This document shows, piece by piece, positions 3,381 through 32,433 of a DNA stretch of 64,000 bases (the first letter of the stretch is position 1; every line of letters begins with the position of its first letter). Made by a program: the position numbers and the translations under genes. Source of the DNA: Patellaria atrata CBS 101060 (taxonomy: Eukaryota). Below the pieces are notes generated by a model. The model did not search any database and was not told the DNA's origin. It saw nothing but the letters and a program-made list of their open reading frames with translations. Location: contig MU006090.1 of NCBI GenBank assembly GCA_010093705.1, positions 682,001-746,000 on the forward strand. The letters run 5' to 3'.

Positions 3381-5248
3381 CTATTGGGTTGATAGTCCGT
3401 TTTGGAACGGTATCGCTCGGGAGAATACGTTCTTCATGAACCTTACCAACCACGCATTTTCCGGCCCTCGGAGAGGTTTGTCTTCGATTGGCAGTTGCGC
3501 TGAGTTAGAACTATCACCTCTACGCTTAAATTTCCCCTCGAGAAATTCTAATAATGACTCAGTGCCTTGAGACAAATGGGACCAAGATTGCTCGCAGCGC
3601 ATGATTTTCTCCGACAGGGCTAGCTCTCCGTTTTCGGATAACTGTAGGAGAATGTATTCTGACATCAGGTCGGCGATCAGCATGATACCATTAGATCTCT
3701 TGCAAATGTTTGATATCGTCGTTAGCGAGCTTTCGAGATGTTCTTCCTGGAGTTTAGCAAAGAGATTGTTGGCTGATAGTTTCTTAACCACGAAATTATG
3801 AATATCATCGTCCATATATTGCTCGAGCTGCAAGTGTGGGATATCCTGCGTATCATATTGCTCAAGAAGTTTGGTATTTGGTCGTGAAGTCAGTAAAACT
3901 TTCAGATGGAATTCCATTCTCCACTCATCCAGAAGATTGAGAATCCCCTTTCCCCTATCTTGGAGCCCGTCAACCCCATCAAGGAGTACTAGTATCTTGA
4001 TTGATCTGCTAGTCGCCTTTAATATATCTGCCATGGCGTTTGTGAGTTCTTTTCCAGACCACAGCGGCGCCTGGACATTGGGTCCAAATAACTTAGTAAG
4101 GGTCCATCGCTTTGGACACACACTCCCAATGAGGTCTGGCTTCTGCTGAAGAAGTTGGTGGAGTACCGTACGTATAATACAGGTCGCAGATGCTTCACCG
4201 GAAAACTTCGAATTTCTAGGACAGAAAACGGCAGCGAGTAGAAATGGGCCCGAGATGTGTCTCTGTAGGTTGCTTCGCCCTTCCTTGCTCTGGGATAGGT
4301 ACCTTATCAATGTTGTCTTTCCAGATCCTTGAGTGCCAATTAAGAGGTATGTCTGTTCTCCATCGGTCAATAGCCAATCAAGAATGCTTGAAGATCCATC
4401 TTCGTAGGTTGTAGAGTTGTTAAGAAGCCATTGGAAATAGCCTTCGCTTTCTAATCTAGTAATTGGTCGGGTATCCTCAGAAATTCCAGGATTCAAGCTG
4501 CTCACAACTGATTCGCAGCAAACATCACATTTGATGCAATATGAATCAGGAATGTTAAAATTCGCGCGATATAATGCAAGTATAAGATCGGAGAGCAGCA
4601 ACTCACGGTCGATACCAGACCGGCCAGCTGATCTAATGAAGTCTTGACCGGCGAATTTCCGCATGCCGTTTGCAAAGTCTCGAGATATGACTTCTAATGC
4701 TTCATCCCGGTAAGGTAAATTGCCATTTTGCGCTTGCTCTTGAGTTGCATCATGTTCTATCTGCTTAAAGCTATTCAAATATTAGGTTTGATTCAATCAA
4801 AGTTTGATGGAGGACAATACCATAGCCACTGTAATATGGCTCGATCTGCTCGCATCTTGAGCTTCCACAGTCTGTTCTCTGTTGCTCCTGGCTTTTCTTT
4901 ACCCCATACTGTTGCGGCTAAAAACAGAAAGGTCTTCTTTGCACAGTTCCATTCAGTTATATCCCGGGCTTGCAGGTCCTCCAGGCATTTTAGCAACTCA
5001 GAGGCGATCGTCTTGCATTCCTTTCTAAATGTCAACAAGGGAATTGCATTTAAAGGCAGGCCTGGATCCTTAATAGCTGGTTCTAATTTGGAAACAAGGA
5101 CGTTGAGGTCATTAAATACTTGGCTCAACTGGACGCGCTTTGATTCCACGCCTAATGGAGACTTATATGTTCTGGCGCGCTGATCTAAGAGTCTAATGGC
5201 GAAGTAAAGGAAATGGATAATAGCTATTGCTGTCGTCTGAGCTGCCAT
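3381..5248 (-). CDS. Fungal NLR-like STAND protein: HeLo/SesA-like N-terminal helical domain + NACHT NTPase, no C-terminal repeats (~605 aa)
   Basis: Exon 5248-4821 joins exon 4770-3381 across a 50-nt GT..CTAAT..AG intron in phase (TG|C). Walker A GTQGSGKT, Walker B ILVLLDGVD, VLLTSRP and RTVLHQLL are typical of fungal NACHT domains. Confidence 0.8.
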
Positions 5249-5743
5249 CGCAGAGTGACCAAAGTCACCCTACGGATGATCCGATGGCTGGAGTAGAAAA
5301 AGACAATTTAATATTTAATATTTATTTACGGAGTGCCGTCGAGACCCAAAACAGTTTATTCTATGTTGGACTGTGCATAACGCTATGACCGCCTCAACTA
5401 CCCCGGGCTGGCTAAGCCAACGCTAGAACTAATTTGGACTAAAGGATCTCCTCTTGTAAGATATCCTCACTCACAGAACAACTGCCAGCAACACCCCACA
5501 TATCTATATGCCTGATTGTCATTCAGGCATGCAGTTAGGGACCACCTTTCATTAGTGATATTACATTCAGTATTGATACTTTAGAAAGAGCCAGTAATGT
5601 ACATGTAATCTTCAAAAGCCTCGAACACGCGGAACGCTTATGTATGCTTGCTACTCGAAGGATTCATAATACCTTTACGATACGCAAATCATCGACCGTA
5701 GACGCCCATTATTCAGTATAATCCTGTACAATTTTTTTTTGGC

Positions 5744-6766
5744 CTAAACATGCAACTCTGCCATAAGAATTTCGGGAGCAAGAATGGCTGGATCGTAGCC
5801 GACGGACCTTGATGTCGCCCACTCGTGGAACGGTTCCCACTTGATGCATTGTCTCTGCGCAGAGGTTTTCAATTCAGGCATCTTGTCAGTTTCGGGATTG
5901 AAACCAAAAGTATACAGAGCGGTATTGGGTGTACACATTACGTTGTGGAGCACGACACCAAGACAATGCGCTATCATTCCGTTAATAGGCAACTCTAACT
6001 TTCCACGGACTGGAACTGGGCCAAGTAGAACGTACCTGCATGCGCCACTTCAACTCTTCTCCTGTGGGCTGTCCTGTTGGGGAAATAATGCTCCTCGTTC
6101 AAGTGCCAATATAGGCGCCGCTATAGGACGCAATTTGTTAACGAAGGATTGAGGAGATGCTTTTTGAGTTCTGGCTAAACCAAACGCTAACTTACCAAGC
6201 AGTGCAGTTCATGATAAACACCGAAGCTAGTGAAGTATCCCCCATCAACCAGTCGTACAGACGCGTCAGGATCATCGTTAGAGAGCTTGATCTCGTCTCG
6301 TGTAGCTTGGAAATATATGGCTACGAACCCATAAGTACGTATTCATGAACAACGACAGACTGAGAATCAACCTTATACTTACGGGATACAAGTTTGTTCC
6401 ATGCATCATCGACTTCCGGGGAAGGCTCCTCAGAATAAATGGAGTATGGGTTTGCAACCGCTTGTCGAGTTTCGAATTCGACAAAGTCCCGTGCTGGAGC
6501 TAAAAATCATTATGAGCATGTGCTGAATCAATTCTAGCTGTTCTACAGCGAGGCTTACTGTAAGGTGGTGATGCTTTCCAAGTCTTCAGACCCAGATACA
6601 CGACAGTTCCAGTCATGAGAAAAGAGTAGACGAGAAGAGATATGATCGCTTTACTGAACTGCCTCATTGGGAGCCGTCCCCGACTTGCTTTTTCTTCGAA
6701 AGGGGCATCCGATAAGCTATCATCGTCCTCAAGAAGTGGTAGACTCTGTTCGATATGCTTCCCCAT
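5744..6766 (-). CDS. DUF3328 / UstYa-like oxidase (fungal RiPP cross-linking enzyme family), 253 aa
   Basis: Five exons (6766-6559, 6499-6383, 6320-6196, 6120-6036, 5970-5744), all GT-AG introns in phase. The product has an N-terminal TM helix, PSPEVDDAWNKL, two HxxHC motifs (HELHC, HAAHC), VMCTPNTALYTF and RQCIKWEPFHEW. Confidence 0.92.
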
Positions 6767-8005
6767 TTTATTAGATCGGTGCTTGTTCAATTGACAAAAG
6801 AGGTGGGAATTTTCAAGAGTCCGTAAAGATATGAAGACTTCAAAGGGGACGCACAGATGTATATGAAGAGTACAGGGCCTACAGGCTTTAACCAAGATCG
6901 ACGATACGGTTAACGCTTCCAAAATGGAATAGCACTGACCGGAGTATAGATGGAATAAGCCGTCATCTTGGGGAACTTGATTTAGGAACTTTAGATTTGC
7001 ATTTTCCGTGTTCACTACTCCGTATATGGCGGGGCTTCAGCCGTTCGACTTACGACGCTGTTGCAACAAATGCTGCATCTTACCAACAACACTATTGATT
7101 CAGATAGGACCTACGGACTTCGGGGCATGAACCAATCTAATCTACGCGATCCCAAGGACTGCGGCGTCCGAAGTCTTGAAACTTGTCTCTTGAGGTGACA
7201 TTTTGGGAACTGAAGATTCCTTGGCTGTGGGCGTTTTATTTGGGGGGTTTGATTCGCGTAAATTTCCTGGGAATCGGCTGCCTGTCTGCCTTGTAGAGTA
7301 TTGCACCATCTCCCGCCGTCACAGCCGTTATATCAGTCCAGGAACCCATGAACCACGAGAAATTTATCTACTAGGGACAGCGAAGAAGAGCGAAGGAATA
7401 ATAGTGGTAAGTTCGTATGAGGCTTGCAGAATAACCAATTTAGTTCTTCCTTATGAAACAATAGTATTCATTAGCCACGTCAATAATTTGACCGAGACCT
7501 GATGGACCTTTCATATCGACCAGGTTAGGAACTTGTGGGACCGGGGAGATCTATCAGTTCACTCGAAAATAAGCAATGCCATCGAGGGCCACCTGCAGCC
7601 AAATGCATGCAACCGCGGTGGCCGTGCCTGCCATAGTTAAGGCCAAAACATCCTTTCAGGAAAATCATTATCGAAATGTTCGATCGCTGAGCGGATAACT
7701 TGGTATTGGCAGACCAACGTCCGACCCCTAATGTCCTGGCACGCCGTGACGCATGCTGGCACTCTTTTTGAGTTTCCCCATGGCCGAGAAGGTCATTTAT
7801 AGTCCGTTTCAGACAATCATTATAAGGTCTCCAATCTCTGCAGCTTTCTCCTCAAGTTATATCAGTCAGTCACATTCATTCAGTTCCGGAGTCGCAAAGT
7901 CTCTCTGCTTTCGCTTGCATTTCCATTCTAGCGAGTCCTCTTCTACATACACAATAAAACATCACAGCTTTCACCCCCCAAAGTGTTCGATCGCTGCTGT
8001 CAACT

Positions 8006-8311
8006 ATGCGGTTCGTGAAATTCTGTAGCATTGTTTACATGCTGGTAACTTATGTTGCTGCTGCACCAATTGAAGGTACAAATCACCTTTTCCTACTTTG
8101 ATCTATGTGGTCCAATTGACGGTTCCTAGGAACAACTATTGATCCGGATGGGTTATTACACTTGCCCAACAACGTCGAGTATGGAGAGCCTATCGATGCC
8201 CGGGTATACTTCAAGACTATTGAAGATGATCCAGATAGTCCGGACAACTCAGACGACTATCCTACACCTGGACACGGATCCTCTAAACCTGGGGACGGAC
8301 GTGGCGCATGA
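8006..8311 (+). CDS. Small secreted peptide (83 aa), candidate RiPP precursor
   Basis: ATG 8006, intron 8076-8129 (GTAC...TTGAC...TAG), TGA 8309-8311. Translation MRFVKFCSIVYMLVTYVAA/APIEGTTIDPDGLLHLPNNVEYGEPIDARVYFKTIEDDPDSPDNSDDYPTPGHGSSKPGDGRGA shows a signal peptide ending VAA-AP and an acidic body. Absent from the ORF track because of the intron. Confidence 0.75.
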
Positions 8312-9096: not shown

Positions 9097-9880
9097 TCAG
9101 CTTCGGGGTCTCCTCTTACGTACCATGAAGAATAGACGGGTCTTCGGCCGATCTGCAAATTCTTCGGGAACGACCAATGTGCGGTGACGTTTCACCTCGA
9201 AGCCGGACTTCTCATACAACCATCTGCCAGCATCTGTAGACTCAACGGTACACTGCATGGACGTGACAGTCAGCACCGTGCTCGAACGTGGTAGAAGGGC
9301 AGCAGAGTTGATGAACTGACCAAGGCGCCCATACTGTCTGCTATCTTCATTCCGGATATCATCAACGCTGTGCCAGCACCACGAAATTGATGCTTTGGTT
9401 TAACTGCCATGACACTCAAGCCTAGAAAGCACGGTATGGTTAGTCTAAATACTCGTTTTCTAAAGGGAAGGTGGAAGTCTCACTGATTAGAGGTAAGTCG
9501 TTCTCTCGCCACGTTTTCCGTTCTTCTTCCTTACATGAACGATGCAGTGCTTGAGCATATCTCTTTTCGGTCTCATTCTCCCACGTCCCAGGAGGGCCGT
9601 CAAGGTCAGAATCTGGCGGTTTTGCATTCTCGCAGATGATCCACATAGCACCACCGATGATTTCGCCAGTTACTGTATCAGTGCATTTCTCCCACTTTAC
9701 AGCGGGACTGACTTTGATGAGATATTGACATCTCTGGATAGCGTTCTCCTCGCCCTCTTTAGTCATGTTACGGGGGAATATCGCGTTGATGTAATCATGT
9801 GTTCCACCGTAGGCACTGAAGACGATAGGAACTAACGTCTTTAGGTCTTCTTCTCCCGCGGGCTCAACAACGAGAGTCAT
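9097..9880 (-). CDS. GNAT-family N-acetyltransferase
   Basis: MTLVVEPAGEEDL...IIGGAMW, then after two introns LSVMAVKPKHQFRGAGTALM (acetyl-CoA-binding QxRGxG motif) and VESTDAGRWLYEKSGF; TGA at 9097-9099. Confidence 0.85.
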
Positions 9881-10682
9881 GTTGCTGTAGTAAGTGTATC
9901 CTTTGGACAGTATCAAGCTGAGTGAACGTCTAGGCATATTATAGATTCGTGCACGCAAATGCCGCGGTCGTACTTGTAAAGTGCATGTGCTTGTATTGTG
10001 ATGCGCAGGCCCCTGTTCAGGTCCATTCGGAGATTATCGGCGTCTATAATGACCTGCATAATTTCTAGTCACTATTGAAGCACCAGGAGGTATTTGGAAA
10101 ATGTTTAATGACTTCTTCAATAATGTTACCCACAGTAAAATTTGTAGGCAGACTAATGTGTGAGATATCACTTTGTGCAACTCTGCAACGAGAGTCTTGT
10201 CTAGCTGCCTTGTTGGTACAGGGGCTTTTTGTTGGTCCCCAGAGAGGAACCCCATCAACCCCCACAACCCCCAGTGAAACCCGATGAACTCAGCTGGTCC
10301 CAGCCCCAGGTACTGGTAAGCACCTGGAATAGGAATTTTAATTCCGTACGGCCCCTTTAGTATCCGCGAATCCTTGACTGGTAGCCGTACTCCGTACATG
10401 CAGAGAACTCTGCAATTGGAAGAAAGATTTGACCAATGTAGGTAAAATATGAGCTGAAGGTAAAACTGAAACATTCTTACGGGTACGTATGCACCATTTC
10501 CCTTTCTATGCTCGCTGATCACGAATACGCTTTCGTTTTTGCGGGCAATGTCCGTAATGTCGATGGAATTTTCGAGGACATCGTTTGCCCAGTCATTCTA
10601 TCAAGCAAGTACTGACCTATTTCTCAGTCGTCGGCCTCGATTTAGGTATCATATATGGCACTTCTATGATTGAAGAATGATA

Positions 10683-12030
10683 CTACACAACTGGACTCTC
10701 CCTATCCACGTGGGGAGCTTGAGTTATTGATCGATCAGCGCTGGATGTTGCAAGATTGGAAGGCGATTTCGACGAGTCCGTCTTGCTGCTCAGCGGATTG
10801 CTTTTTGTCCCCAGGGGAAATAAATTGGAGCTTGTGTGCGTTCCTCCCGTCGGTCCTACACTATTGTACCCTAATCCGCGGCGTACATTACTGCTGGACC
10901 ATCCAGGTTGGAGGTATTCCATTACCGGCTTCATGAACGGTAAACAAGTAATCAAGATGCTTGTGTTCATAACAACAGACGTTGTTATTGCAACATTTGC
11001 ATATTTGTAGGTGATATCCCATCGTGAAGTGTCACGATCGGGGCCTAGTCTAAACCCGTAGACTAGCTTAAATATCACGGGGATCAATATTCTAAAACTG
11101 TTTAGCAAGACTTCCTCTTTGGAATTCCTGTTTCAACTCACAGGGCTCTTGCGGCAAATACTAGGGTAAGTATATATTTTGTGTTGGATGTTTGCAAAAT
11201 CCAAACGATTGAGATCAAAAGGACAGCTAGCATAATATCAATTGAGACATTTACGACCTCAACAAATATCCAAAATGCATTCTGTCGAAAGGTCAATAAC
11301 CGATCAGGCACTGTCAGTCATGTGACACTTACTTGATTGAAGCATTTTCCATGTACTACTTCCCATGGATGAGGTAAATCGCATTGGAAAGCTATTCCGA
11401 AGATAGATATGCTGGACTTATCATTAATGAACAGTTTTCTTCAAGGAAACAATTACTCACATCGTCCATACAATCGTGATTCCAAAGATGATTTTCAAAA
11501 GCATCGATCTTGTCGGAGTTGGTTGAAGAATGAGTGCAAACAAGAAGGCTGCTGATTTTGTTGTGCACAAGACGGCGATATACAATATTTCAGCTACATA
11601 TTCGGTCTACATGATAGTTGGTTAACTTGAAACCTGAGGTACTTTGGACCAATTGGGTTCTCATTCGAACCTTTTCATATTTAGATATCGACGCTGGTTT
11701 TAGGGTATCTTGATGTTTACCCAAACCAGCTGACACTTGTTGAGAGACAGCAACAGTTTGGCCTGCTGCGAGGAGCTTTATCATACAGAATGCGATCAGC
11801 GATCTATCGGAAATTCGAGTGGGATTAATCCTTCTACTAACCAAAGCAAGTGTCAACAGGATATCATCCAGTTGAAGGTTGCCCGGATGTATCTTGCGTC
11901 GGGGGCGTGCGAACTTGGTTAAAACTTTGGAGACTACCCCCAAACCCGAGAGGATGAAGAAAATCCATATTATGATGTTGACAAGCGCGCTATGATGATC
12001 CGGACCGATTGTGTTTTCCGCAGAGGCCAT
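10683..12030 (-). CDS. PTH11-like (fungal rhodopsin-domain) integral membrane protein
   Basis: Multi-exon. N-terminal TM ...LQLDDILLTLAL, GLGKHQDTL, FQCDLPHPW and C-terminal TSILITCLPFMKP; no CFEM domain. Confidence 0.75.
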
Positions 12031-12890
12031 AGTACCGGTAACCCTACATTCTCAGAATGAAGGCGAAAAAAAGAATTTGGGCAGATGGAGCATCAAGAAC
12101 AAATGTCACACCTTTAGGACTGATGCGAACTACCTACCAACCGCGCCATCAAAAGCACGAAAATCCAAATATCGTGCCCCTAGCAATTTGAGGGAGAACT
12201 ACCGGCGTTGCCGATATACTTGCAGGGAGCGCGGGGGTAGTTGGTGATAACGACGCCGAATCCAGGGATTTGAATCCTTTTTTTGGGTCAATATGCAGCC
12301 TTTCACATCAATTTCATGATTCTCTTCCAACGCGGGAACACCAACACCACCAGTCTGGCACGTCTGGCTACTCTGGCACCAGTGACAATCCTCCAAGTTG
12401 CCCCATGCCTGGCCGTCTGGCCGCCTGGCCCCAGAATCCCAGATACGCTCTCCCCCCTTGGATGCTGTAACCAGGTCTGACCGGGTGCATACTCCAGCTG
12501 TTTCTTATGCTAAGAACTAATACATAAGCTCGAAGTGAGCTTAGAGTGGTCCCGTCGGACCCACCAGCATTGAGGACAGCAGTCAACGAATTAGATGGTT
12601 GGGAATACCATCTGAAATGTGAGATTTTGATATTATAATATTTTGAGGAAATGCGTTTGGTTTATCATCCGTTTATCAGTGGTCTATTCTCGCAATCCTC
12701 GCCGATCATCCTGGCTTGGCTACGGACTTTCTGCAAGCCACAGAAACAGAAGGCCGTTACGCTATCCGTTTCCAGTTTAACGGTTTCAGATGCTTCTGTG
12801 GAGCGGCACACGCTATCTCCATGTCTTTCTTTGAAAGTTGATTCAACTTCCCTTTCCATTGATTGTCGCATTGGCAATCCAGAAGACACC

Positions 12891-14933
12891 ATGGCGGAAC
12901 GAAACAACTACCAGAGGAGTAAATTGGACTCCTCGGTGGATACGGTAGATGTCGAAGTCAGTAGTGGTTCGAGGAGCAAGACAAGCGATGAGCAAACTCT
13001 TGCTCACTTCGGAAAGAGGCAGAGATTTCGAGTAAATGCGCCGTTGTGAAGTATACTTTGATAAAAGCTGATATATCAACAGAGGAACTTCAACTTTCTG
13101 TCTGTTGTTGGTTTGACCAGCACTCTTAGTATGTTAAGATTCAGAACTTTTCATGCTTTAGTTTTTGATACTGATATTTTTAAGTGCTGTCATGGGAGGG
13201 AGCATTAGCGTTCGTACTCGCGTGTTTTCTTGTTAAAGTCTTTCTGATTCTAACACTTCTCGTTCAAGCGGTTTTCAAGCTGTCCTATTCAATGGCGGTC
13301 CAACTGGAATCATTACCACTTTCCCAATTGTCTTCGCAGGAGTTTTCATGCAAACCTTAGTAATGGCAGAGATGTCTTCGATGTAAGAGAAAGGAAATCT
13401 TGGCATTATCCCCCTTCATGCGCCTGACAATATCGCAGGATTCCCCTATCAGGAGGCCAATACAACTGGGTTGCTATCCTCTCTCCTCCTAGGTTTTCGA
13501 ACTTTCTATCCTACGTCACGGGTTGGATAATCACGATCGCCTGGCAAGCTGCGGTTGCAGCACTCTCATGGTTGGCATCCAATATGATCGTGTCTCTCGC
13601 GAGTTTTAACTATCCGGACTACGGCGTGCAGCACTGGCATGCTACGCTTATCTTCTATGCTATTATAGTCCTCGGAATCTTGGTGAATACATACCTCGGC
13701 CGTATTTTCCCCACGTTAGAGTCATTTGCGTTCCTTATTCATTGCATTGGATTCTTCGTCATCCTGGTCGTAATGGTCTATCTTGCCCCAAAGACCCCCA
13801 GTAAGGAGGTTTTCGATAATTATATCAACGGCGGTGGGTTTTCCACTACCGCTCAATCAGTCTTTGTCGGCTCTATACCGGTTGCGTTCGGGTTTAACGG
13901 TATTTACTATTACCCCTTTATCCAGAACGTACTTTAAGAGTGCTGACAATTTGCAGGTATTGATGCCGCTGCTCATATTGGTAAGTATATCGAATCCCAC
14001 CAGTTTATGTTCCACTGGTGGTTAACTCCTTTACATAGCCGAGGAAATCGAGAATGCTACCCGAGTGATTCCGAAAGCCATGATCGCCTCCATCGTACTC
14101 TACTTTCTCATGGGCTACACAGTCTGCATCCTAGTTGTGTTCTGCTCAAGAGTTGAAGACGTTCTGACCGACAGCTTCTCCTTCCCCATCATCACCATCT
14201 TCGGCAACATCACCGACTCCAAAAGCGGAACATCAGCCTTGGTACTTCCCCTTCCCCTTCCCTTTCCCCTCATCCCCAATTTTCCCTTGCTCTACTAACT
14301 CTACCCACTAACACCGCTAACCCTCCCAAACAGGTCTCCCTCATCATCCTCGTCCTCATCTGCGGCGTCTGCGGCCTCCTCGCCACCGCCTCCCGCATGC
14401 TCTGGGCCTTCGCCCGCGAAGACGGCGTCCCCTTCTCATCCTACATCTCGCGCATCGAGCCCCGCACTCAACTCCCCATCTTCAGCATCGGCGTCACATC
14501 CGCCCTCTCGCTCCTCCTCGCGCTCATTGGCCTCGGTTCCGAAGCCGCATTCAACGCCCTCTCCGGCCTCACCGTCGCGGGTTTCTACTCCGCCTTCATT
14601 GTCTCCGCGAGCACCATGCTCTGGCGGAGATGTACCACCCCGACCGCGAACATCCCCTGGGGCCCGTTCAGGCTGGGCAAGGCCGGGGTGCCGGTGACGC
14701 TGGCCGCGTTGGCGTATTCGGTCGTAGGGTTGGTGTTTAGTTTTTGGCCGCCCGTCGCGCAGGTCGATGCCAAGAGCTTCAATTGGAGTCTGGTGGTGTA
14801 TTTAGGTGTTTTGACGGGCGCGATGGGGTGGTGGGGGGTTAGGGCTAGGAAGACGTATAAGGGTCCCAAGATGGAGATCAGCAGTCAGCAGTGGTTGGAA
14901 CTGTTCGAAAGAGGAGATTGGAGGGAAAGTTGA
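12891..14933 (+). CDS. APC-superfamily amino acid/GABA/choline permease
   Basis: Multi-exon. LAHFGKRQRF..RNFNFLS, MAEMSSMIPLSGGQYNWVA, AAHIAEEIENATRVIPKAM, SRMLWAFAREDGVPFS and WGPFRLG motifs. Confidence 0.9.
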
Positions 14934-15560: not shown

Positions 15561-17028
15561 TCATTTTTCTTCTCGCGACCATGGCTCCGCAAGCCAAGGA
15601 TAGTAGTTATAAAACTCCAGATTCTCATCTCCCTCCCTTCTTGGCTCCTGCACCGTAACTATCTCCACCGTTCTCACTATTCCCGCTCCTTGCACCTCGA
15701 TCGGCAAACTCGTACTGCTGATGTTGTTGCTGGACTGCTTGTTGCTTTCCTGACTGTTCACGTGTAATAGTTCTGCTCTGTCCTGGTCGGGTAGCCGAAA
15801 CCCCGGGTGCTGCGGCTGGTTGCCGGACCATATCCGAGTGCTTGGGAAGGCTAGGCGTGTGCTCGGTTGACGTCTTGAGATGTGAGTCTTGTCGACCCAG
15901 AGGGAGAATATTCGACGGAAGGAGGAGCGGCGGGTGGCAATGTCGCGGAAGAAGATGGGCATGACAGGGAGGCAGATTAGGAATAGACCGGCGGCCATTT
16001 CGGGGAAGGCGGTTAGTCCCATTAGGGCGATGTAGTAGGTGGTGTCTTGGCTTTGGAGCAGTTGCACACTGAAGTATAAACGCAGTGTTGCGAAAATGCA
16101 GGCCCTGTGGTATGAGGTTAGACAAAGGATGTACAGATATATTGGTGATACTTGCACGATCCCGATCATGAAGACGGCGGAGAAGTCCAACTTTTGCTTC
16201 AGAGACAAACGTAGACCCCATATCACTTTCTGGGGTAGTAATAGCATCATCAGGTCAGTGGTAACGTTAAAGATACCTGAGGCTAGATTAAGACGTTTGA
16301 TGTCGATACATTTTCCCGGGATAAGATCACCCTTCCATGCTTTTTGGCGCGGACTGCAGGCAAAGATCTCAAGGAACGTCAAGGAGGTAAAGAAGAGTAC
16401 ATTCGTCCAGAGGATGAAATGGGATGAAAAGAAGACAAATCCCTTTCGGCCCTTGGGATTGAATAGTCGTAGAAACTGAGTTACAAGGGCAACTTTAATC
16501 CACATGAGTCCGATTCGATAGATGATAGAACCGACATGAACATACTAATACAATGTTAATATTTGACAAAGGTCTTCTGAGTCGAAATATTAACTTACAA
16601 GCATAAATCTGCTAAGATTCTTCAACTGTATGTCCCATTGGTGTACGATAGGCGCATACTGAATTGCCATACATGTCGGCACATAGAATGCTAAATAGAA
16701 TCCCTAGTATCCATCAGATGCTGCAAAGACAGAGGTATACTGTTCTACGTACCCAACTAATTAAGAGGAAATCTATTTTCAAATATTAGCTTTGAAAAAT
16801 TCATGTGATTGCCAATGTCTCACAGTCTTCGATATTGATCTCTCGTAAAAGGCGAACCTTCACATATGCGCGGATAGTAGTTGCAATGGAGGGAATGACC
16901 AAGCATAGAATGACCACAACAAGACTTAGGGTTCTTTTGTTTTCGGGATCAGAGAAGTTGGGAACTGCATGATTGGGAGGTTGTAGAGCAGGTCCATCTA
17001 ACTGGGACTGTGTTTGGGCAGAAAGCAT
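15561..17028 (-). CDS. PTH11-like (fungal rhodopsin-domain) integral membrane protein
   Basis: DGPALQPP..VPNFSDPEN, RAYVK..INIED, HQWDI, IKVALVTQFLRLF, FACSPRQKAW, DLMMLLLP..VIWGL and EMAAGLFLICLP; several GT-AG introns. Confidence 0.85.
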
Positions 17029-19791: not shown

Positions 19792-20580
19792 TCATGCAAT
19801 CCAACGACGGAGCCTCATGAACACAACATTCCAGATAGCTGGGCCCGGGATCTGGTAATCTGGGTGCAACGAATTGTGGATATCAAGAGCAAGGCCAGGT
19901 TCTGTACCCTTGTAGAATGTCGTCGCGAGAACACCGCCAGTGATAGACTTGGTACCCGTTCCGGTAACCTTGAGGTTGAGGCATTGAGGATAGAATTCAG
20001 CACCGAGACCACCAGGAAAAGCGAGATGCAGGGCGATAATTTCATGGCGGAGGACGTATTCTCCGGCCTTGAGTTGAGGCGGGATCTTGATGTTCCAGGA
20101 GAAGTTGTCAGCGGCCAATTCATCTGCAGCCCAGGTGCCCTCTGGACCAGTAGCGTTCACCCAACCACGTTCCTGGATCTTGACCCACTTCAAGGTCGTC
20201 TTGTCGACAGTAGAGCAAGGTCCGTTGCAGGCGGCAATGTAATCAATGACGGGACCCTTATGCGAAGGAGGCCACTCGTTCCACTTGACGCGAAGCTGGT
20301 GTCCTGACATGATGGTGATACTGGATTTAGCTGGAGCACCGTCTTTCGCACAGATGATATTGGGCTTGTCGGCTTGATCAGGATACAATGGGTTGTTTCC
20401 TAAGTTTGTGGTGGACCAAGCAGGAATGTCTGTTGGGACTGGGAGGCCATTCGCCCAGATCTCAGGATCCCACCCAGTGTAGGAGACACCGTCCGCAGTG
20501 ATGTTGGTGATGCGAGCATGGCCGAGGACCAGAGGCGTAAGAGAAGAAAGAATAAAGATTGAAGCGGTGGTTGCATACAT
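19792..20580 (-). CDS. AA9 (GH61) lytic polysaccharide monooxygenase
   Basis: Signal peptide followed directly by His1 (LVLG/HARI), SHKGPVIDY, WVKIQERG, YVLRHEIIALH and AEFYPQCLNL; intronless 262 aa. Confidence 0.95.
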   Translation of the reverse strand: MYATTASIFILSSLTPLVLGHARITNITADGVSYTGWDPEIWANGLPVPTDIPAWSTTNLGNNPLYPDQADKPNIICAKDGAPAKSSITIMSGHQLRVKWNEWPPSHKGPVIDYIAACNGPCSTVDKTTLKWVKIQERGWVNATGPEGTWAADELAADNFSWNIKIPPQLKAGEYVLRHEIIALHLAFPGGLGAEFYPQCLNLKVTGTGTKSITGGVLATTFYKGTEPGLALDIHNSLHPDYQIPGPAIWNVVFMRLRRWIA

Positions 20581-23500
20581 CTTGAAGAAGAGACTCTGAA
20601 GATGAGTCTGAGGCTGTTTGAATTGAAGACTGTGCTGGAAGCTGAGGAGTGAAGAACAATTTGGAGTGGATATGCGACAGCTTTATATACACTACATTCC
20701 CCAGCGGACGGGACATATTTCTTGAGATTGACATTGAAAATATCATCAATTTATCACGATGCTAAGAAAATGCGGTTGATGGACTTGGAAAAAGCAAAAC
20801 TTGTAGTGGAGCGGCTTAGGTCAGACGCACGGTTAACGCGCACAGGTAGGAGAACCTCCCAGCAAAACTTATTCGCTGAATCTGCCTTGAGATCTATAAT
20901 AATAGCCGGTAAGATGGCGCTAAATATCCAATGAAAGACGCTAAATAACTGATTAGGTTCTACAAATGCGGGTTTAGATCTTGTATGTCGGTAGCGAACT
21001 GCACCTGTCTTTCAGCCACCAGTCCTTATACATCAGTCTGCCTTGAGACATTAACTTAATCATCCGGCAATGTGGCGCTAGATACCCAATAAGAATCTCT
21101 AAGCCCTTCAACAAGATGCTGCTTGTGCATACTTCAGATATTGTTCAAGGGATATATGATCCTTTTCGCAGCCACTATAGACCATAACCTCAAGATTCCA
21201 GACTTGATATCCGCACTGACTTCGAGATAGCCATTCATATGTAGCACCCAGGAGTCTTCCTAGAGTCATGAAGTAAACAGCAGACTAGTGCGTGTGACTA
21301 CCTCGTATTCTGCTGTACATTTCTACAACACTGTCCAGGAAACTGTCCCGACTATGGCCGAAGTCATCCTCAAGAGCGGTAAGAATAGTACCCCTGCATG
21401 ACTATCTCACCACGACGTGCAAGAGCCAGACATGGAAACACTGTCAATACCAATCATTTCCTCTCATCCAAACAATTCTAGAAGCTTACCATATCTGGAA
21501 GATTGGGGCGTCAAACTTCACGAGGATTTGAATAGACTCCATACTTCTGTCATGGGTGGATTACGGATTTCTCCTGATCTCGGCCGATGGAAGAAGGCGG
21601 AATTTTCATTTTGAGCGTGGCAATCCAACATACCAAGATCTGACATATCTCTTTCCGACCGATTGCTCAGCATAGACCGAAGTCATGAACGCTATTATCT
21701 GATACCAGGCTCCAGAGTGCATCTAATTACACGTATGGTTTGTGCCGAGTCACTCACCACTTCCTCGAACTATGAATATAGTCTACGGAAAGCGGCACTA
21801 AGTAAGTCTGCCTACACCTTGTGCGGATAAATAGCGTTGCCTTTATCAGTAGAGTAGTATTAGATACGGTTCTCTATTGTTAGCAAGATCCCCCAACTTG
21901 CAGTAAGTAGTAATGAGAAACTTTTCTTCTTACCGCTATATTCTTACCGCTATATTTACTCCGTCTTATCACTCATGTAAGACTTTTGAACGGATCTTGC
22001 CATGTTTATCGTTGATTACTAGGTATTAACCTTTCAATATACTGTGCGAGGCAGAAAATGTTTGTCTCCTGATGATTCTGCATGATATGTAATGGAGATC
22101 TACAACCACAGGTACGGTCTGGAACCAGATCAACAAAGGGTTCACATAGGTGAATCCTCCCGTCACAGGGACACTATTCATGGTGGAAGAGTAGCGGTTC
22201 TCGTTGAACAATTGAAAATTCAGCATGATCCTTCAAGGACTGTAAACGGAAGAAAGACGCGAGATATAGCTTACGGCGCGTGGTAAGTTCCTGTGCAATG
22301 AAATTGTGCAACCAGCGGACCATTTACCAGTTACGACCAATGTCTTGAGTTATTGATTTCGAGTGTGTGTCAAAGGTTCCAGCTTCCAACAAATCATTGA
22401 AGGTTGAAGTTTCTTCAGTCATTCCAGAATCATTTCTACTCGAAGATACTGTTGATAATTGAGTAGTTCTCAGCGACTATGGGTTTATTTTGTCACAAGT
22501 ATGATCTAGTTAAGTTTGGAATATCCTTGTTTTTCGATTCTTCGTTGATCTCTCTTAGGAGGCGAAAGACAGGCTGTTCCGCGGAAGTTACAAGTCATTA
22601 GCTAAGGATCACATAACATATACTATAGACGTCCAGCCAGACTCTATCGTCATGAAAGGGTCATTTTCTCTATCAAAGGTGTTACCATTCTCGAGACGGG
22701 ACATTGAATCTCGTGCCGCCGAACGCCTACCTTCCTCAACGGGAGCGAATGAGGTGAACAAAGATTCCGATTATAGTGCACACACCTCAAGAGATACTTT
22801 ATGATAGAACATGTTTCGGTATTCGGGCCGGCGTTGCTCACCACATCAGCCGTGGGCGCCTGTTTGTGCTCACACAGTTGGCGGAGAAGATTCAATGATC
22901 ATGCTGGAGACCTTCGGCCCTCTAGAGTCTGAAACTGGGCACTGGTGCGTATATTCCCTTTTCATGGTCTGGTATTGATTCACTGTTTGCAATAGGCCGC
23001 TTTTCAAACTTACGATCTCGTAGTTCTTTTCGTCAAACACCCTTCACTGTAAGCAGTACTTCATAAGGTGCAACATAATACTTCAACTTATGTCTCAGTC
23101 GTCAGCCGTCGAAGTCTTACAACATTATTCTCGTCTCCCATTACATTTCAATATCAGAGAAGGCAATTAGGTTTTATAGTTCCCTAAAAGGGGCGTCAAA
23201 AAATGAGATGGATATTTCCCTCGGAGATGTACAACATCCTAGCCAGTTATTACATCAATCACCCCCGGTAAAGAATGATTATACAGTACAATGATAAAAG
23301 CCTAGATAACGATCGAAACAGAGCAGAAAGTGGAGGCACTCATGCAGTAGTGTCAGGAAGGATAACATGAACAGAACCGTATCTTCATATGCACCGCTTG
23401 CGCTTCTTATACAATGGAGAGTGCAAGAGTACTTTCCTTCAGGCTTCCTACCTTTCTATTTCTTTTCCCTTGTCCACGTAATTCGTACTGCCAAATAATT

Positions 23501-25866: not shown

Positions 25867-28800
25867 ATGGATGCCGGAATCAGGGTAGATTCCAAAGCAA
25901 GAATCGAGGATGGAAGATTAATAATTTGGAGAAAGAATTCCGAGACTCATAATAAGGGCTAGATACAGTAAGGAATAGATAGCTCTTGTTGTATATTGCT
26001 AATAGTCATATTTGGCAGGTTCATCGCTATAAATGGGATCTGTGAAAACACCAGGAGCCCTTGGACTAATAAATCCACTTTTTGGATTGAGGATTGTTTG
26101 CTGCATGATTTTTTAATGCAACTTTGACCGTTCTGAATTTTCAAATGCAAGAGTTCAGAAGTTGGCGAACTCTTTTGGACTGTGGTGAGAGGCTACATTA
26201 CGAGCTTAAGAATATCCTCTCTGCCACAGAGGTCTGTGCCTCCACAGCAAAAAATATCTTATTCTCAGTATTGATTTTCTTAGTCATGTCAAGTCTATCT
26301 GTGTCACGGATTAGGTGGGTTGGTGTTTCACCAGGTATGAGCTTCAATTTGACAGTCCACGTTTTTCCTTTGCGAGCATCTCTGATTTGAATCATTGAGT
26401 ACGCAATCTATCTCTGGCACACGAAGCTAAACAGACAAACCGATTGGTTCAATCCTTCTCTCGCAGTTTTCTTTGGCACTCCAGTGGATATAAATTCTGA
26501 AATAAGAACCATGAAAAAGGTGTTGAGGGAATTTGTTATTGTTGAATCTGGTGGAACACAGGATCTCCTCGGGGATATGAATGATGAGATAGCAAAAGAG
26601 ATCATGGATTTGGGTAAAAGCTTATCCAGAGATTCAAACATCCCGTCCATAACTTTCTACGAAAAGGGCGAGAGTCCGGTGAAGAAGTCTAGGTTTGGAA
26701 CAAAAAGGAGATTGGTATGCGCTTTACCCCTCTGAGGCATTTACCTAGTTAACGACAAATAGCTAGTATCTGAATCGATGGCTTCAATTGGGCGCGGGAA
26801 ATCCTTTGATACGCCGGAAGACCATATCAATGTTGCGAGACTTGAGCATGACTTATTTGAAAAGTTGAAGCTGGAAATGAAGAATACTACTACGAGATAT
26901 ATTAATGGTATGGTCACGATTGTTAGTTTATTTATTCCGATAATAACAACATTAGCAGACTTAACAATAGCGGACGGATTGACTGCAAATCAGGATAAGA
27001 CCGAAGTTGAAAAACAATCGTCGTTTGTACCAAGACTCCAGGGACGAGGTCGGCAAGATTCGAACAAGACATCTCATAATGCAAACACACAATTCGCTAT
27101 CCATAGCTTCTCAGAACATGCTAGCGAGTTGGGGCTCGTTAGCGAACATGAGAACGATCAGACTGCAGTCCAAGCAGAGTTGATGCGATGGTATGCTACA
27201 ACAGGCTAGTCACTGATCCTTCCGTCCTCATATCTACTTATACATATAGATATCCCTTGGTTGTTGGTATTTGACAACGTCAATGATCTTAGCACTCTGG
27301 CCGAGTTCTGGCCCACTGGAAATACTGGCTCTGTACTCATTACTTCTCGAGATCACACATCTTCAACATTGACACTAGTAGAAGCTAGTGAAAAGATACA
27401 GGGGTTAAGAGCTGAAAAAGCAATTGACTTAGTCCAAAACCTTCTTGGACGGGCTCAAGTTTCCGAAGAAGAGAGAGAGGAGTTGTCAACGATTGTCGAA
27501 AAGGTGGAACATCTCCCACTCGCGCTTCAGAGTATAGCTAGAACCATGTTGAAAATGAAGTGTTCAGTGCACGATTTTGCTATGCAGTGTGCCGAGCTCC
27601 AGGATATCATTGAAGATTCTGGCCCGCGGCATTTTAACCGCCCAACTTCGCGCTATGAGCACTGTCTTCAAACTGTATGGAGATCAAGTTTAATGACCTT
27701 AGACCATTCGACGCGTAAGCTTCTCGAGGCGATATGTTTTCTAGATCCCGATGGTATCCAGGAAAAACTTTTAAGAGCTACCGTCAAGTAGAGGGATAAG
27801 GAAGCGCACTTTCCGCTGTTCTTAAGGGATTCTGACCTTTTCCGCAGTGGGGCTACCCTAATGAAACTATCGCTCGTCGAAAGCACAGATGACGGGGAAG
27901 AGTCTCGCTATCACATTCACCGTCTTATTCAGGCTTTTGTAAAATCTCAATTAACGGATAAGAGTAGCCAAAAAGCATTTGATGCCGCTCTAAGTATGCT
28001 TCTAGACGTTTGGCCTTTTGCAGATCAGCATGAGCGTACTCAAGTCTCATGTTGGAGTATCTAAGAAAGATACATGCAACATGTAAAGTCGCTACGATTA
28101 GCATATGAGAATTCTTGGGATAGTGATACAGAGAGTGTGGGGGGCCTCATCACAAATGTCTCGTTCGCCGATCTTATGAATAGTACAACCATGTAAGTAT
28201 ATCTCTCTTTCTGGATAAGGACAAAGTTATTGATTATGCAGGTATTGCGCGTGTCGAGCGTTATATTTTGATGGCTGGCTATATTTCCGCACCGTTGAGG
28301 ACTTTGTCAAAAGGGTATCTTTAGAGGATTTCTGGAAGGACCAAATTCTCCATTACGCGTAACAAATCGCTGGCTCTATCGCATGTCATATTGGAGATTT
28401 TATCGGTGGCTTAGAGTATCTTCTTAAAGCTCAAAGATTACTTTGCAATCTTTTCGACTCGGGCAAGTTGCGTCGACCAGACGACCGAGAATCCTGGTTT
28501 GCAGGAATGCTCGGGGGCGCTTATAATGGCCTAGGCCAAAATGACGAAGCTGAGAAATGATATCTTGAGTGCCTTAGACTTTGGACGATCCCAGCCCCTT
28601 CAACATTCATTATCTCTCTAGGTATTGCGTATCACCATAACGGCAAGCATGAAGAAGCAGAAATAACAATCAGAGATTTCATTGAAAGACGTCGAAAAAT
28701 ATTTGGCCCTGAAGACATGGTGGATTACCGGTACTGCTTACCTCTGTAAAACTTCAGAAATGCCACTGACATTGAAAGGGTTGGCTTCGCCTACTACAGT

Positions 28801-31829: not shown

Positions 31830-32433
31830 TCGTAATATTCCGAGAAAACAGGAGAGGAGGTTACTAATTATACATAAGATACTAATGTTCTTCTGCATGA
31901 CTAACAGTCGCAAATTTCCAATTCCATAAGAGATTAGACCAAATAGAGGCTTTACTCATTGGGTTGCTCATTAAAGAAGCAATCAATCCCTGCATCCAAA
32001 ACCCATATACAGGTCTTGGAAGTGTGGGGTATCCTAGAAGACGACAATATGGCTAAATTTGGCTATTCTTCGAACGTCACAGGAAAAGCTTAGTATTTAC
32101 GATCTAGATGATAGATACAAACTGGAAGGGCCTAGCTTCACTGATTGATTTGACCAAACCAGCGTCCAACTGAAATTTTAAACCAGGTTCGACGGATTGA
32201 TGGAGGAAATATGGAGGACCAATAAGGAGAAGCATCAGATGGAAATCCGGCAGGGAGAATATTCAAGACGAAAAAAGAGGATTCGGAACTAGGGAAGTTC
32301 TTTCATGTGGATAATATGTTCTACAGTCAATTACTGACACGATCTTCTGCCGCGAATACATTAGGTATAGGATATCCACAACCACTGTGCAGTCTTCGTA
32401 CACTTCCAACAACAAGAGACAACACTCACCAAG

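What the first reader, a model, noticed from the sequence alone, without database searches (positions are those of the whole stretch)
5744..8311. Candidate minimal fungal RiPP system: DUF3328 oxidase head-to-head with a hidden secreted peptide gene
Seen: a complete five-exon DUF3328 gene with both HxxHC motifs (HELHC, HAAHC). About 1.24 kb upstream on the opposite strand lies an 83-aa spliced ORF with a signal peptide and an acidic, Tyr-containing body. The ORF track splits the oxidase into fragments and misses the peptide entirely. Established: DUF3328/UstYa enzymes oxidatively cross-link Tyr-containing cores of secreted precursors (dikaritins such as ustiloxin, phomopsin and asperipin-2a) and sit next to their precursor genes. 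Inference: a two-gene, shared-promoter RiPP cassette making an undescribed cyclic peptide.
Basis: partly seen in the sequence, partly recalled or inferred. Interest (0 to 1): 0.88.

Follow-up and report, generated by a model that had tools for sequence, protein, structure and literature searches.

The report
Conserved copper-oxidase and secreted-peptide gene pair
A fungal DUF3328 (UstYa-type) oxidase gene sits head-to-head with a small secreted-peptide gene, and the pairing is conserved in related fungi, so the peptide may be an unusual substrate of the oxidase, though it lacks the hallmarks of known precursors of this kind and nothing is shown chemically.

Summary
The oxidase has five exons, 253 aa, Pfam UstYa at 130 bits and both HxxHC motifs. 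The peptide has two exons and 83 aa with a signal peptide. Neither is hidden: identical proteins are already deposited as hypothetical proteins of Patellaria atrata CBS 101060.

The peptide is not a canonical dikaritin precursor. It has no Kex2 (dibasic) sites, no repeated core, and no tyrosine conserved in its relatives. The 64-kb window holds no tyrosinase, methyltransferase, NRPS or PKS.

The new result is two homologues of the peptide in metagenome contigs (L005, L002). Each lies head-to-head with an orthologue of this same oxidase. Each has the same gene structure: a signal-peptide exon, a 52-54 nt phase-1 intron, then a TT[IL]...G...EP.DA motif. That is 3 of 3 testable loci in an oxidase clade with 0.98 support.

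A wider five-gene block is also syntenic, so linkage alone does not prove coupling. No RNA data were obtainable.

I favour a non-canonical, single-copy DUF3328 substrate peptide (about 0.42) over mere syntenic neighbours (about 0.38). Interest is moderate.

The parts
5744..6766 (-). UstYa/DUF3328 gene. Five exons: 6766-6559, 6499-6383, 6320-6196, 6120-6036, 5970-5744. 253 aa.
   Evidence: Gene model, identical to P0002. PF11807 at 130.1 bits.
6584..6667 (-). Predicted single transmembrane helix (residues about 34-61), preceded by a disordered N-terminus.
   Evidence: Hydropathy peak at residues 40-58. AF2 model helix 34-61, with residues 1-33 at pLDDT below 50.
6199..6213 (-). First HxxHC motif (HELHC, residues 145-149), in exon 3.
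   Evidence: H145, H148 and C149 are invariant in 11 relatives.
5963..6042 (-). Second HxxHC motif (HAAHC, residues 177-181), split by intron 4 (coding bases 6042-6036 and 5970-5963).
   Evidence: H177, H180 and C181 are invariant. The same split by an intron is seen in L005 and L013.
6767..8005 (.). Divergent intergenic region of 1,239 nt, a presumed bidirectional promoter.
   Evidence: Position only. No k-mer is shared with the L005 and L002 intergenic regions above the shuffled expectation.
8006..8075 (+). Peptide gene exon 1 (70 nt), encoding the signal peptide. It ends in phase 1.
   Evidence: Exon 1 is 67 nt in L005 and 70 nt in L002.
8076..8129 (+). Peptide gene intron, 54 nt, GT-AG.
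   Evidence: Introns of 52 nt at the same position and phase in L005 and L002.
8130..8311 (+). Peptide gene exon 2: acidic, Cys-free mature peptide plus stop codon.
8132..8200 (+). Conserved N-terminal segment of the mature peptide (TT[IL]..G...EP.DA).
   Evidence: Alignment A2 has invariant T1, T2, G7, E16, E19, P20, D22 and A23. Pairwise BLASTP E values are 9e-4, 0.004 and 0.009.
9097..9880 (-). GNAT-like acetyltransferase gene, tail-to-tail with the peptide gene. Part of the syntenic block; limits approximate.
   Evidence: 48% identical to the L005 neighbour and 40% to the L013 neighbour. The L005 piece weakly matches Pfam Acetyltransf_1.
10683..12030 (-). Pth11-like / fungal-rhodopsin-domain membrane protein gene. 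Part of the syntenic block; limits approximate.
   Evidence: Weak collinear PF20684 hits on four ORF pieces. Homologues lie next to DUF3328 genes in L005, L013/L014, L017 and L026.
12900..14933 (+). Amino-acid permease gene. Part of the syntenic block; limits approximate.
   Evidence: PF13520. Homologues in L005 and L013.

Best explanation
This is an evolutionarily conserved, divergently transcribed gene pair. One gene encodes a UstYa/DUF3328 enzyme: a type-II membrane protein whose catalytic domain, carrying two HxxHC motifs, faces the lumen of the secretory pathway. In the one biochemically characterised member, CctR, this fold is a binuclear-copper, O2-dependent oxidase. The other gene encodes a fast-evolving 58-83-aa secreted peptide that is acidic, Cys-free and probably disordered.

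I propose that the peptide enters the ER through its signal peptide and meets the oxidase domain in the secretory pathway. There it would be oxidatively modified (hydroxylation or a side-chain cross-link) within its conserved N-terminal segment (TT[IL]..G...EP.DA), then secreted, possibly after trimming. On this reading it is a single-copy, Kex2-independent substrate, which makes the pair a non-canonical relative of the dikaritin RiPP systems rather than a member of them.

Shown: both gene models, family membership of the enzyme, and conservation of the peptide gene and of its head-to-head position.
Inferred: co-expression, enzyme-substrate relation, type and site of modification, and the fate of the product.
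For: 1. The enzyme is complete. PF11807 scores 130.1 bits. Both HxxHC motifs are invariant across 11 relatives. The AF2 model shows a disordered N-terminus, a TM helix at 34-61, and two helices (142-158, 168-188) each carrying one HxxHC. This matches the architecture described for CctR (PMC12435403, part 1 of the text read).

2. The peptide has two homologues, each at the same place relative to a DUF3328 orthologue. These are L005 (70 aa) and L002 (58 aa). The evidence is reciprocal best tblastn hits; pairwise BLASTP E values of 9e-4, 0.004 and 0.009, with every alignment starting at the first codon of exon 2; and the same structure of a signal-peptide exon of 67-70 nt and a phase-1 intron of 52-54 nt.

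3. In a rough FastTree the oxidases of the window, L005 and L002 fall in three sub-branches of one clade of 10 with support 0.983. The peptide is present in 3 of the 3 members with enough upstream DNA. The other 7 could not be examined: 2 contigs are too short and 5 are database proteins without DNA.

4. The gene at the 3' side of the oxidase differs in all four contexts: an NLR in the window, an amino-acid permease in L005, a lectin/subtilase in L002 and an aquaporin in L013. The head-to-head neighbour stays the same.

5. Both products are predicted to go to the secretory pathway.

6. Family precedent: 31.8% of 9,399 DUF3328 genes lie within 15 genes of a secreted Kex2-repeat precursor gene, with the peak at the adjacent position (PMC7329392, passages).

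7. No NRPS or PKS that could supply another substrate was seen in the window's ORFs of 110 aa or more (47 of 89 listed ORFs scanned).
Against: 1. The peptide fails the defining tests of known DUF3328 precursors. It has no dibasic site, no repeat, and no conserved Tyr or other aromatic residue. The same scan found canonical Kex2-repeat precursors beside distant DUF3328 paralogues in L021/L022, L025 and L027.

2. The whole block of amino-acid permease, Pth11-like protein, GNAT, peptide and DUF3328 is syntenic in L005 and L013. Adjacency may therefore reflect low local rearrangement rather than function.

3. In the sister clade (L013/L014) the same position holds only a 49-aa signal-peptide-like ORF with no detectable similarity. 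Such ORFs occur by chance at 0.39 per kb per strand.

4. About two thirds of DUF3328 genes are not near any Kex2-repeat precursor, and family members also act on non-ribosomal peptides.

5. The family has only three peptide members, and each pairwise similarity is modest.

6. No shared promoter motif was found.

7. There is no evidence of transcription, splicing or co-expression, and no product.
Confidence: 0.42

Rival explanations
1. The two genes are syntenic neighbours without biochemical coupling. The peptide is an independent, rapidly evolving small secreted disordered protein, for example effector-like or acting at the cell surface. The DUF3328 enzyme acts on some other substrate encoded elsewhere. 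The pair stays together because divergent gene pairs and this whole block are seldom broken.
For: - A five-gene block is syntenic in L005 and L013.
- About 7.7% of annotated fungal proteins carry ER signal peptides, so a secreted neighbour is not rare (PMC7329392 passages).
- The peptide lacks repeats, Kex2 sites and a conserved Tyr.
- 68% of DUF3328 genes are not near a Kex2-repeat precursor.
- An orphan, disordered effector candidate lying between two UstYa genes is reported in Ascochyta lentis and is treated there as an effector (PMC13159263 passages).
Against: - The head-to-head adjacency is the only one kept in all contexts, while the oxidase's other neighbour changes each time.
- Both products share a compartment.
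- No alternative substrate gene is visible in the 64 kb.
Confidence: 0.38
2. The conserved block (amino-acid permease, Pth11-like membrane protein, GNAT, peptide, DUF3328) is a larger co-regulated unit. In it the oxidase modifies a small molecule, for example an amino-acid derivative handled by the GNAT and the permease. The peptide is accessory or unrelated.
For: - The block's order is kept in L013 and, with two rearrangements, in L005.
- Pth11-like genes also lie near DUF3328 genes in L017, L026 and L032.
- DUF3328 enzymes hydroxylate and chlorinate non-ribosomal substrates.
Against: - There is no backbone enzyme.
- The GNAT, the permease and Pth11-like proteins are common fungal genes with no known tie to this family.
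- The permease has moved and the Pth11-like gene is inverted in L005, so the block is less stable than the pair.
Confidence: 0.12
3. The small ORF is not a functional protein-coding gene. It would be a spurious gene model, or a non-coding divergent transcript.
For: - No RNA evidence could be obtained.
- The donor site GTACAA is weak.
- The structure prediction is very poor: the Atlas model has pLDDT 0.29.
- Signal-peptide-like ORFs are common by chance.
Against: - Reading frame, intron phase and position, signal peptide and an N-terminal motif are kept in three lineages whose oxidases are only 35-50% identical.
- The surrounding intergenic DNA shares nothing above chance.
Confidence: 0.05

Closest known systems
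Asperipin-2a system (aprA precursor plus one DUF3328 oxidase, AprY), the smallest known dikaritin cluster. Known to me from passages in PMC7329392 and PMC12048977 and from recall.
   Same: A single DUF3328 gene next to a gene for a secreted precursor with an ER signal peptide. Modification is presumed to occur in the secretory pathway.
   Different: AprA carries many Kex2-flanked repeats of a Tyr-rich core. The peptide here is single-copy, has no dibasic site and no conserved Tyr. A reductase and a transporter accompany aprA/aprY; none is seen here.
Ustiloxin, phomopsin and victorin dikaritin clusters.
   Same: The class-defining UstYa/DUF3328 enzyme with a double HxxHC motif. The precursor is secreted.
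   Different: Those clusters have several DUF3328 paralogues, a tyrosinase, a methyltransferase and other tailoring genes, and Kex2-repeat precursors. None of these is in the window. In my rough tree, the metagenome loci that carry such repeat precursors fall in a distant DUF3328 clade.
CctR, the cyclochlorotine hydroxylase (PMC12435403).
   Same: The predicted architecture: a disordered cytosolic N-terminus, one TM helix near residues 38-60, and a lumenal helical domain with HxxHC on two adjacent helices.
   Different: CctR acts on a non-ribosomal cyclic peptide inside an NRPS cluster. No NRPS lies here. Copper binding and dimer formation are untested for this protein.
AlenEC002 of Ascochyta lentis, an orphan effector candidate between two UstYa genes (PMC13159263).
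   Same: A small, orphan, structurally unpredictable secreted candidate encoded directly beside UstYa genes in a Dothideomycete.
   Different: I found no sequence relation to it and did not test for one. That locus is subtelomeric, flanked by transposons and strain-specific. This pair is conserved across orders.
Acalitide precursor AcaA (PMC10840396).
   Same: An approximately 80-aa single-core fungal RiPP precursor without Kex2 repeats, which shows such precursors exist in fungi.
   Different: It is matured by a peptidase and by disulfide formation. No DUF3328 is involved, and it is Cys-containing.

Membership tests
UstYa / DUF3328 (Pfam PF11807), for the enzyme | Match to PF11807 above the gathering score | tested here: met
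   130.1 bits against a cut-off of 25, E 1.5e-37, profile positions 27-220 of 220.
UstYa / DUF3328 (Pfam PF11807), for the enzyme | HxxHC(x)nHxxHC double motif | tested here: met
   HELHC at 145-149 and HAAHC at 177-181. All six His/Cys are invariant in 11 relatives.
UstYa / DUF3328 (Pfam PF11807), for the enzyme | Single N-terminal TM helix with a lumenal helical domain that places the two motifs on adjacent helices (as described for CctR) | tested here: met
   By prediction only. AF2 model has mean pLDDT 73.7, a TM helix at 34-61, and helices 142-158 and 168-188. Hydropathy peak at 40-58.
UstYa / DUF3328 (Pfam PF11807), for the enzyme | Binuclear copper centre, disulfide-linked homodimer, O2-dependent oxidation | not testable with these tools
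   Two further invariant Cys (C191, C220) exist. Their role is inferred only.
Dikaritin RiPP system / Kex2-processed repeat precursor (KEP), for the peptide and the pair | ER signal peptide on the precursor | tested here: met
   My own heuristic only, plus the source name 'Secreted protein'. SignalP was not available.
Dikaritin RiPP system / Kex2-processed repeat precursor (KEP), for the peptide and the pair | At least 3 tandem repeats of at least 8 aa between Kex2 sites KR/KK/RK/RR (definition in PMC7329392) | tested here: not met
   No dibasic site in any of the three peptides. The repeat scan found none in the window but did find canonical precursors in L021/L022, L025 and L027.
Dikaritin RiPP system / Kex2-processed repeat precursor (KEP), for the peptide and the pair | Tyr (or another cross-linked residue) kept in the core | tested here: not met
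   Tyr 41, 50 and 67 of the window peptide are not conserved. L005 has only a C-terminal Tyr and L002 has none.
Dikaritin RiPP system / Kex2-processed repeat precursor (KEP), for the peptide and the pair | DUF3328 gene within a few genes of the precursor gene | tested here: met
   Directly adjacent and head-to-head, 1,239 nt between ATGs. The same holds in L005 and L002.
Dikaritin RiPP system / Kex2-processed repeat precursor (KEP), for the peptide and the pair | Accessory genes of the original definition: tyrosinase, methyltransferase, several DUF3328 paralogues, transporter or peptidase (as quoted in PMC12048977) | tested here: not met
   None among the 47 long ORFs scanned. No second DUF3328 in the window. 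Only an amino-acid permease lies nearby.
Dikaritin RiPP system / Kex2-processed repeat precursor (KEP), for the peptide and the pair | An oxidase-dependent modified peptide product | not testable with these tools
   Needs mass spectrometry.

The most novel reading that the evidence does not exclude
DUF3328 copper oxidases have a second, unrecognised class of ribosomal substrates. These would be single-copy, Kex2-independent, Tyr-independent secreted peptides, encoded head-to-head with the enzyme and recognised through a short conserved N-terminal segment (TT[IL]..G...EP.DA). This would define a new branch of fungal RiPPs, or a new enzyme-installed modification of a secreted protein. It could also explain part of the roughly two thirds of DUF3328 genes that have no repeat precursor nearby.
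Probability: 0.3. Interest if true: 0.75.

Novelty: new variant of a known kind. Interest (0 to 1): 0.5.

Why it matters
Genome mining for fungal DUF3328 RiPPs looks for signal peptide plus Kex2-flanked repeats. Most DUF3328 genes have no such partner, and a study of lichen fungi explicitly wondered whether single-core precursors exist (PMC12048977).

This conserved oxidase-peptide pair without repeats gives a concrete two-gene test case for that question. It would also give a new substrate type for a newly defined copper-enzyme family.

If the pair proves uncoupled, it is a warning that 'DUF3328 next to a small secreted gene' is not enough to call a RiPP cluster.

Tried and rejected
**RNA evidence.** The look-up of sequencing runs listed no RNA holder. 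The two runs listed (X1, X2, one sample) are genomic contigs. They cover exons, introns and intergenic DNA alike, with no joints. Nothing can be said on expression or splicing.

**Complex prediction.** The oxidase lumenal domain (two copies) with the mature peptide returned 'no answer', score 0.02 against a mark of 0.34. This is no evidence either way.

**Whole genome.** None is held for the window. The record behind L013 could not be searched.

**Database searches with the peptide.**
- The word-index search found only the peptide itself.
- Exhaustive HMMER against 1.84 billion representatives gave the peptide itself plus three hits. These are repeat-inflated chance matches to tandem-repeat proteins, partly over the signal peptide.
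- The true homologues score only 15-19 bits pairwise, so such searches could not have found annotated orthologues. The 'orphan' result is therefore uninformative.
- ESM Atlas gave no look-alike above chance level: best score 0.80, own model pLDDT 0.29.
- PDB by sequence gave nothing for the enzyme profile and only chance hits for the peptide.
- Pfam gave nothing for the peptide.

**L013/L014 small ORF.** It sits at the right position and has a signal peptide, but shows no similarity. It is not counted as a homologue.

**HMM search of the loci.** An HMM of the three peptides, run against all six-frame ORFs of the 62 loci plus the window, found no fourth member. The best other E value was 2.1. 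The three members match by construction.

**Promoter footprinting.** Shared 7- to 10-mers among the three intergenic regions equal the shuffled expectation.

**Literature.**
- The search for 'UstYa' by word start was swamped by an author name.
- The supplements of PMC7329392 hold no entry for this organism.
- Searches turned up no description of a non-repeat peptide family paired with DUF3328.
- bioRxiv supplements and subscription journals were not searchable.
Full report
**1.

On the minus strand, five exons (6766-6559, 6499-6383, 6320-6196, 6120-6036, 5970-5744) joined over four GT-AG introns of 59-75 nt give a 253-aa protein with HELHC and HAAHC. This protein is letter for letter the database protein P0002. 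P0002 matches Pfam UstYa/PF11807 at 130.1 bits against a cut-off of 25. The separate exons hit successive parts of the profile.

On the plus strand, 1,239 nt from the oxidase ATG, exon 8006-8075 and exon 8130-8311 joined over a 54-nt GT-AG intron give 83 aa. This is identical to P0001.

Both database proteins carry the source name 'hypothetical protein ... Patellaria atrata CBS 101060', and one source calls P0001 'Secreted protein'. The peptide gene is therefore missed only by a plain ORF list, not by public annotation.

**2. The enzyme**

An alignment of P0002 with ten relatives shows H145, H148, C149, H177, H180 and C181 invariant, together with C191 and C220.

An AlphaFold2 model (mean pLDDT 73.7) has these features:
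- a disordered N-terminus (residues 1-33);
- one long hydrophobic helix (34-61; hydropathy peak 40-58);
- a domain in which helices 142-158 and 168-188 each carry one HxxHC.

This is the layout reported for CctR, the one biochemically characterised family member. That paper describes a cytosolic disordered N-terminus, a TM helix at 38-59, a lumenal helical domain, a disulfide-linked homodimer and a binuclear copper site that uses O2 (PMC12435403, first third of the text read). No relative has a solved structure. Copper binding and activity are inferred here, not shown.

**3. The peptide is not a canonical precursor**

Published definitions of dikaritin/KEP precursors require an ER signal peptide plus at least three tandem repeats of at least 8 aa between dibasic Kex2 sites (PMC7329392 passages; PMC9632046 passages).

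The 83-aa peptide has a signal-peptide-like N-terminus by my heuristic. It has no dibasic site, no repeat and no Cys in the mature part. That part has 14 acidic against 4 basic residues and three Tyr. Its predicted structure is essentially disordered (Atlas pLDDT 0.29).

The same repeat scan served as a positive control. It recovered textbook precursors, with YPD-type cores followed by KR repeated 3 to 8 times, beside distant DUF3328 paralogues in metagenome loci L021/L022, L025 and L027. It recovered none in the window.

The window's long ORFs hold no tyrosinase, methyltransferase, NRPS, PKS or second DUF3328 (47 of the 89 ORFs of 110 aa or more were scanned).

**4. Relatives of the peptide, and where they lie**

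Sequence databases gave nothing usable. The word-index search found only the peptide itself. An exhaustive HMMER search of 1.84 billion representatives found the peptide itself plus three repeat-inflated chance hits.

The oxidase has apparent orthologues at 40-53% identity in several Dothideomycetes. A scan of metagenome contigs with their alignment returned 62 loci.

In L005, the oxidase is 65-69% identical to P0003/P0008 and about 47-57% to P0002. There, tblastn with P0001 gave its second-best hit among all loci. The hit lay on the opposite strand, 650-900 nt upstream of the oxidase start. Reading the DNA shows:
- a 67-nt exon encoding a signal peptide;
- a 52-nt GT-AG intron in phase 1;
- an exon that begins with the same TTI motif.

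The product is 70 aa.

L002, whose oxidase is 58% identical to P0009, has the same arrangement: a 70-nt signal-peptide exon, a 52-nt phase-1 intron, an exon beginning TTL, and a 58-aa product.

Pairwise BLASTP of the exon-2 products gives E values of 9e-4, 0.004 and 0.009, and each alignment starts at residue 1. The L005 exon finds the window's exon 2 as its best hit in all 64 kb.

The alignment keeps T1, T2, G7, E16, E19, P20, D22 and A23. The tails differ in length and sequence. No Tyr is conserved: L005 has only a C-terminal Tyr and L002 has none.

**5. How deep the pairing goes**

I built a rough FastTree from database proteins and concatenated tblastn segments, rooted at the midpoint. It places the oxidases of the window, L005 and L002 in three sub-branches of one clade of ten, with support 0.983. 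The loci with canonical repeat precursors lie in a distant clade.

Of the ten clade members:
- three have enough upstream DNA, and all three carry the peptide gene head-to-head;
- two (L001, L004) lie on contigs too short to tell;
- five are proteins for which I could get no DNA.

In the sister clade, L013 (and its near-duplicate L014) has at the same position and strand only a 49-aa signal-peptide-like ORF with no detectable similarity. Such ORFs occur at 0.39 per kb per strand by chance (396 in 1,015,358 strand-bases), so I do not count it.

**6. The caveat from synteny**

The pair is embedded in a wider conserved block. Translated comparison of L005 with the window matches five genes: a Pth11-like membrane protein, a GNAT, the peptide, the oxidase and an amino-acid permease. 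In L005 the permease has moved to the other side of the oxidase and the Pth11-like gene is inverted.

L013 keeps the window's order and orientation exactly: permease, Pth11-like, GNAT, small ORF, oxidase. Pth11-like genes also lie near DUF3328 genes in L017, L026 and L032.

Outside the block the neighbours differ. The gene on the 3' side of the oxidase is an NLR in the window, the permease in L005, a lectin and a subtilase in L002, and an aquaporin in L013.

The head-to-head adjacency is therefore the most stable one at this locus. Part of its stability may still be plain synteny.

**7. Weighing**

For an enzyme-substrate relation:
- the head-to-head pairing is conserved over order-level divergence;
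- both products are predicted to share a compartment;
- the family is known to sit next to the genes of its secreted substrates (31.8% of 9,399 DUF3328 genes within 15 genes of a KEP, peaking at the adjacent position);
- no other substrate-supplying gene is visible.

Against:
- every canonical precursor feature except the signal peptide is missing;
- the block is syntenic as a whole;
- the peptide family has only three members;
- there are no expression data.

I put a non-canonical single-copy substrate at about 0.42, uncoupled neighbours at about 0.38, a larger small-molecule unit at about 0.12, and a non-gene at about 0.05.

If the peptide is modified, the conserved Thr-Thr-Ile/Leu and Glu-Pro/Asp-Ala positions are the likelier sites. 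That would fit the family's C(sp3)-H chemistry. This point is inference.

**8. Comparison with what is known**

The enzyme is a member of UstYa/DUF3328. The pair works, if at all, like the smallest dikaritin systems: one DUF3328 plus one secreted precursor, as in asperipin-2a. It fails the membership tests for a dikaritin precursor.

A lichen genome study raised the possibility of single-core precursors without finding one (PMC12048977 passages). An orphan effector candidate between two UstYa genes is reported in Ascochyta lentis (PMC13159263 passages). A single-core 81-aa fungal RiPP precursor exists outside this family (PMC10840396 passages).

My searches found no description of a conserved non-repeat peptide family paired with DUF3328. 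Subscription journals and preprint supplements were not covered.

**9. What could not be done**

- No RNA run was available, and the two holders are genomic.
- The complex prediction gave no answer.
- The fungal genomes that hold the orthologues could not be fetched.

The decisive computation is to check the upstream regions of those orthologues. The decisive experiment is co-expression with mass spectrometry.

Noticed in passing
window 3381-5269 (-): A NACHT/NPHP3_N P-loop NLR-like gene lies directly downstream of the oxidase gene. A second NB-ARC-type ORF lies at 27210-27791. It is not syntenic in the related loci.
   Followed up: partly
window 9097-14933; L005 1802-9774; L013 221-6626: A five-gene block (amino-acid permease, Pth11-like/fungal-rhodopsin-domain protein, GNAT, small secreted ORF, DUF3328) is kept across three lineages. 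There are rearrangements only at its edges. Whether it is a co-regulated unit is unknown.
   Followed up: partly
L013 5037-5183 (-), same in L014: A 49-aa intron-less ORF with a clear signal peptide sits exactly where the peptide gene lies in the other loci. It has no detectable similarity to the peptide. It could be a diverged counterpart or chance.
   Followed up: yes
L021 2795-3286 (-), L022 4644-5135 (-), L025 4565-4876 (+), L027 3336-3749 (-): Canonical Kex2-repeat precursors with [IV][AV]YPD-type cores followed by KR, repeated 3 to 8 times, lie beside distant DUF3328 paralogues in metagenome contigs. They are likely undescribed dikaritin-type clusters.
   Followed up: no
L002 2744-4292 (-): A fungal alpha-galactosyl-binding lectin ORF and a subtilase (Peptidase_S8) ORF lie just downstream of the oxidase orthologue. 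A subtilase next to a putative precursor-oxidase pair might matter for processing.
   Followed up: no
window 7531-7621: In run X2 the assembly graph breaks here into 31-60-nt contigs. Low-depth alternatives differ by one letter, at depth 6-14 against about 450. This points to a minor variant or a sequencing error in the intergenic region.
   Followed up: no
window 15561-16544 (-), 19792-20682 (-), 32371-33550 (+), 40567-41139 (-), 45807-48812 (-), 56686-58043 (-): Other genes in the window: a second fungal-rhodopsin-domain protein, an AA9 lytic polysaccharide monooxygenase, a fungal glucuronoyl esterase, an Fe/Mn superoxide dismutase, a RasGAP/PH protein and an actin-family protein. All look ordinary.
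   Followed up: no
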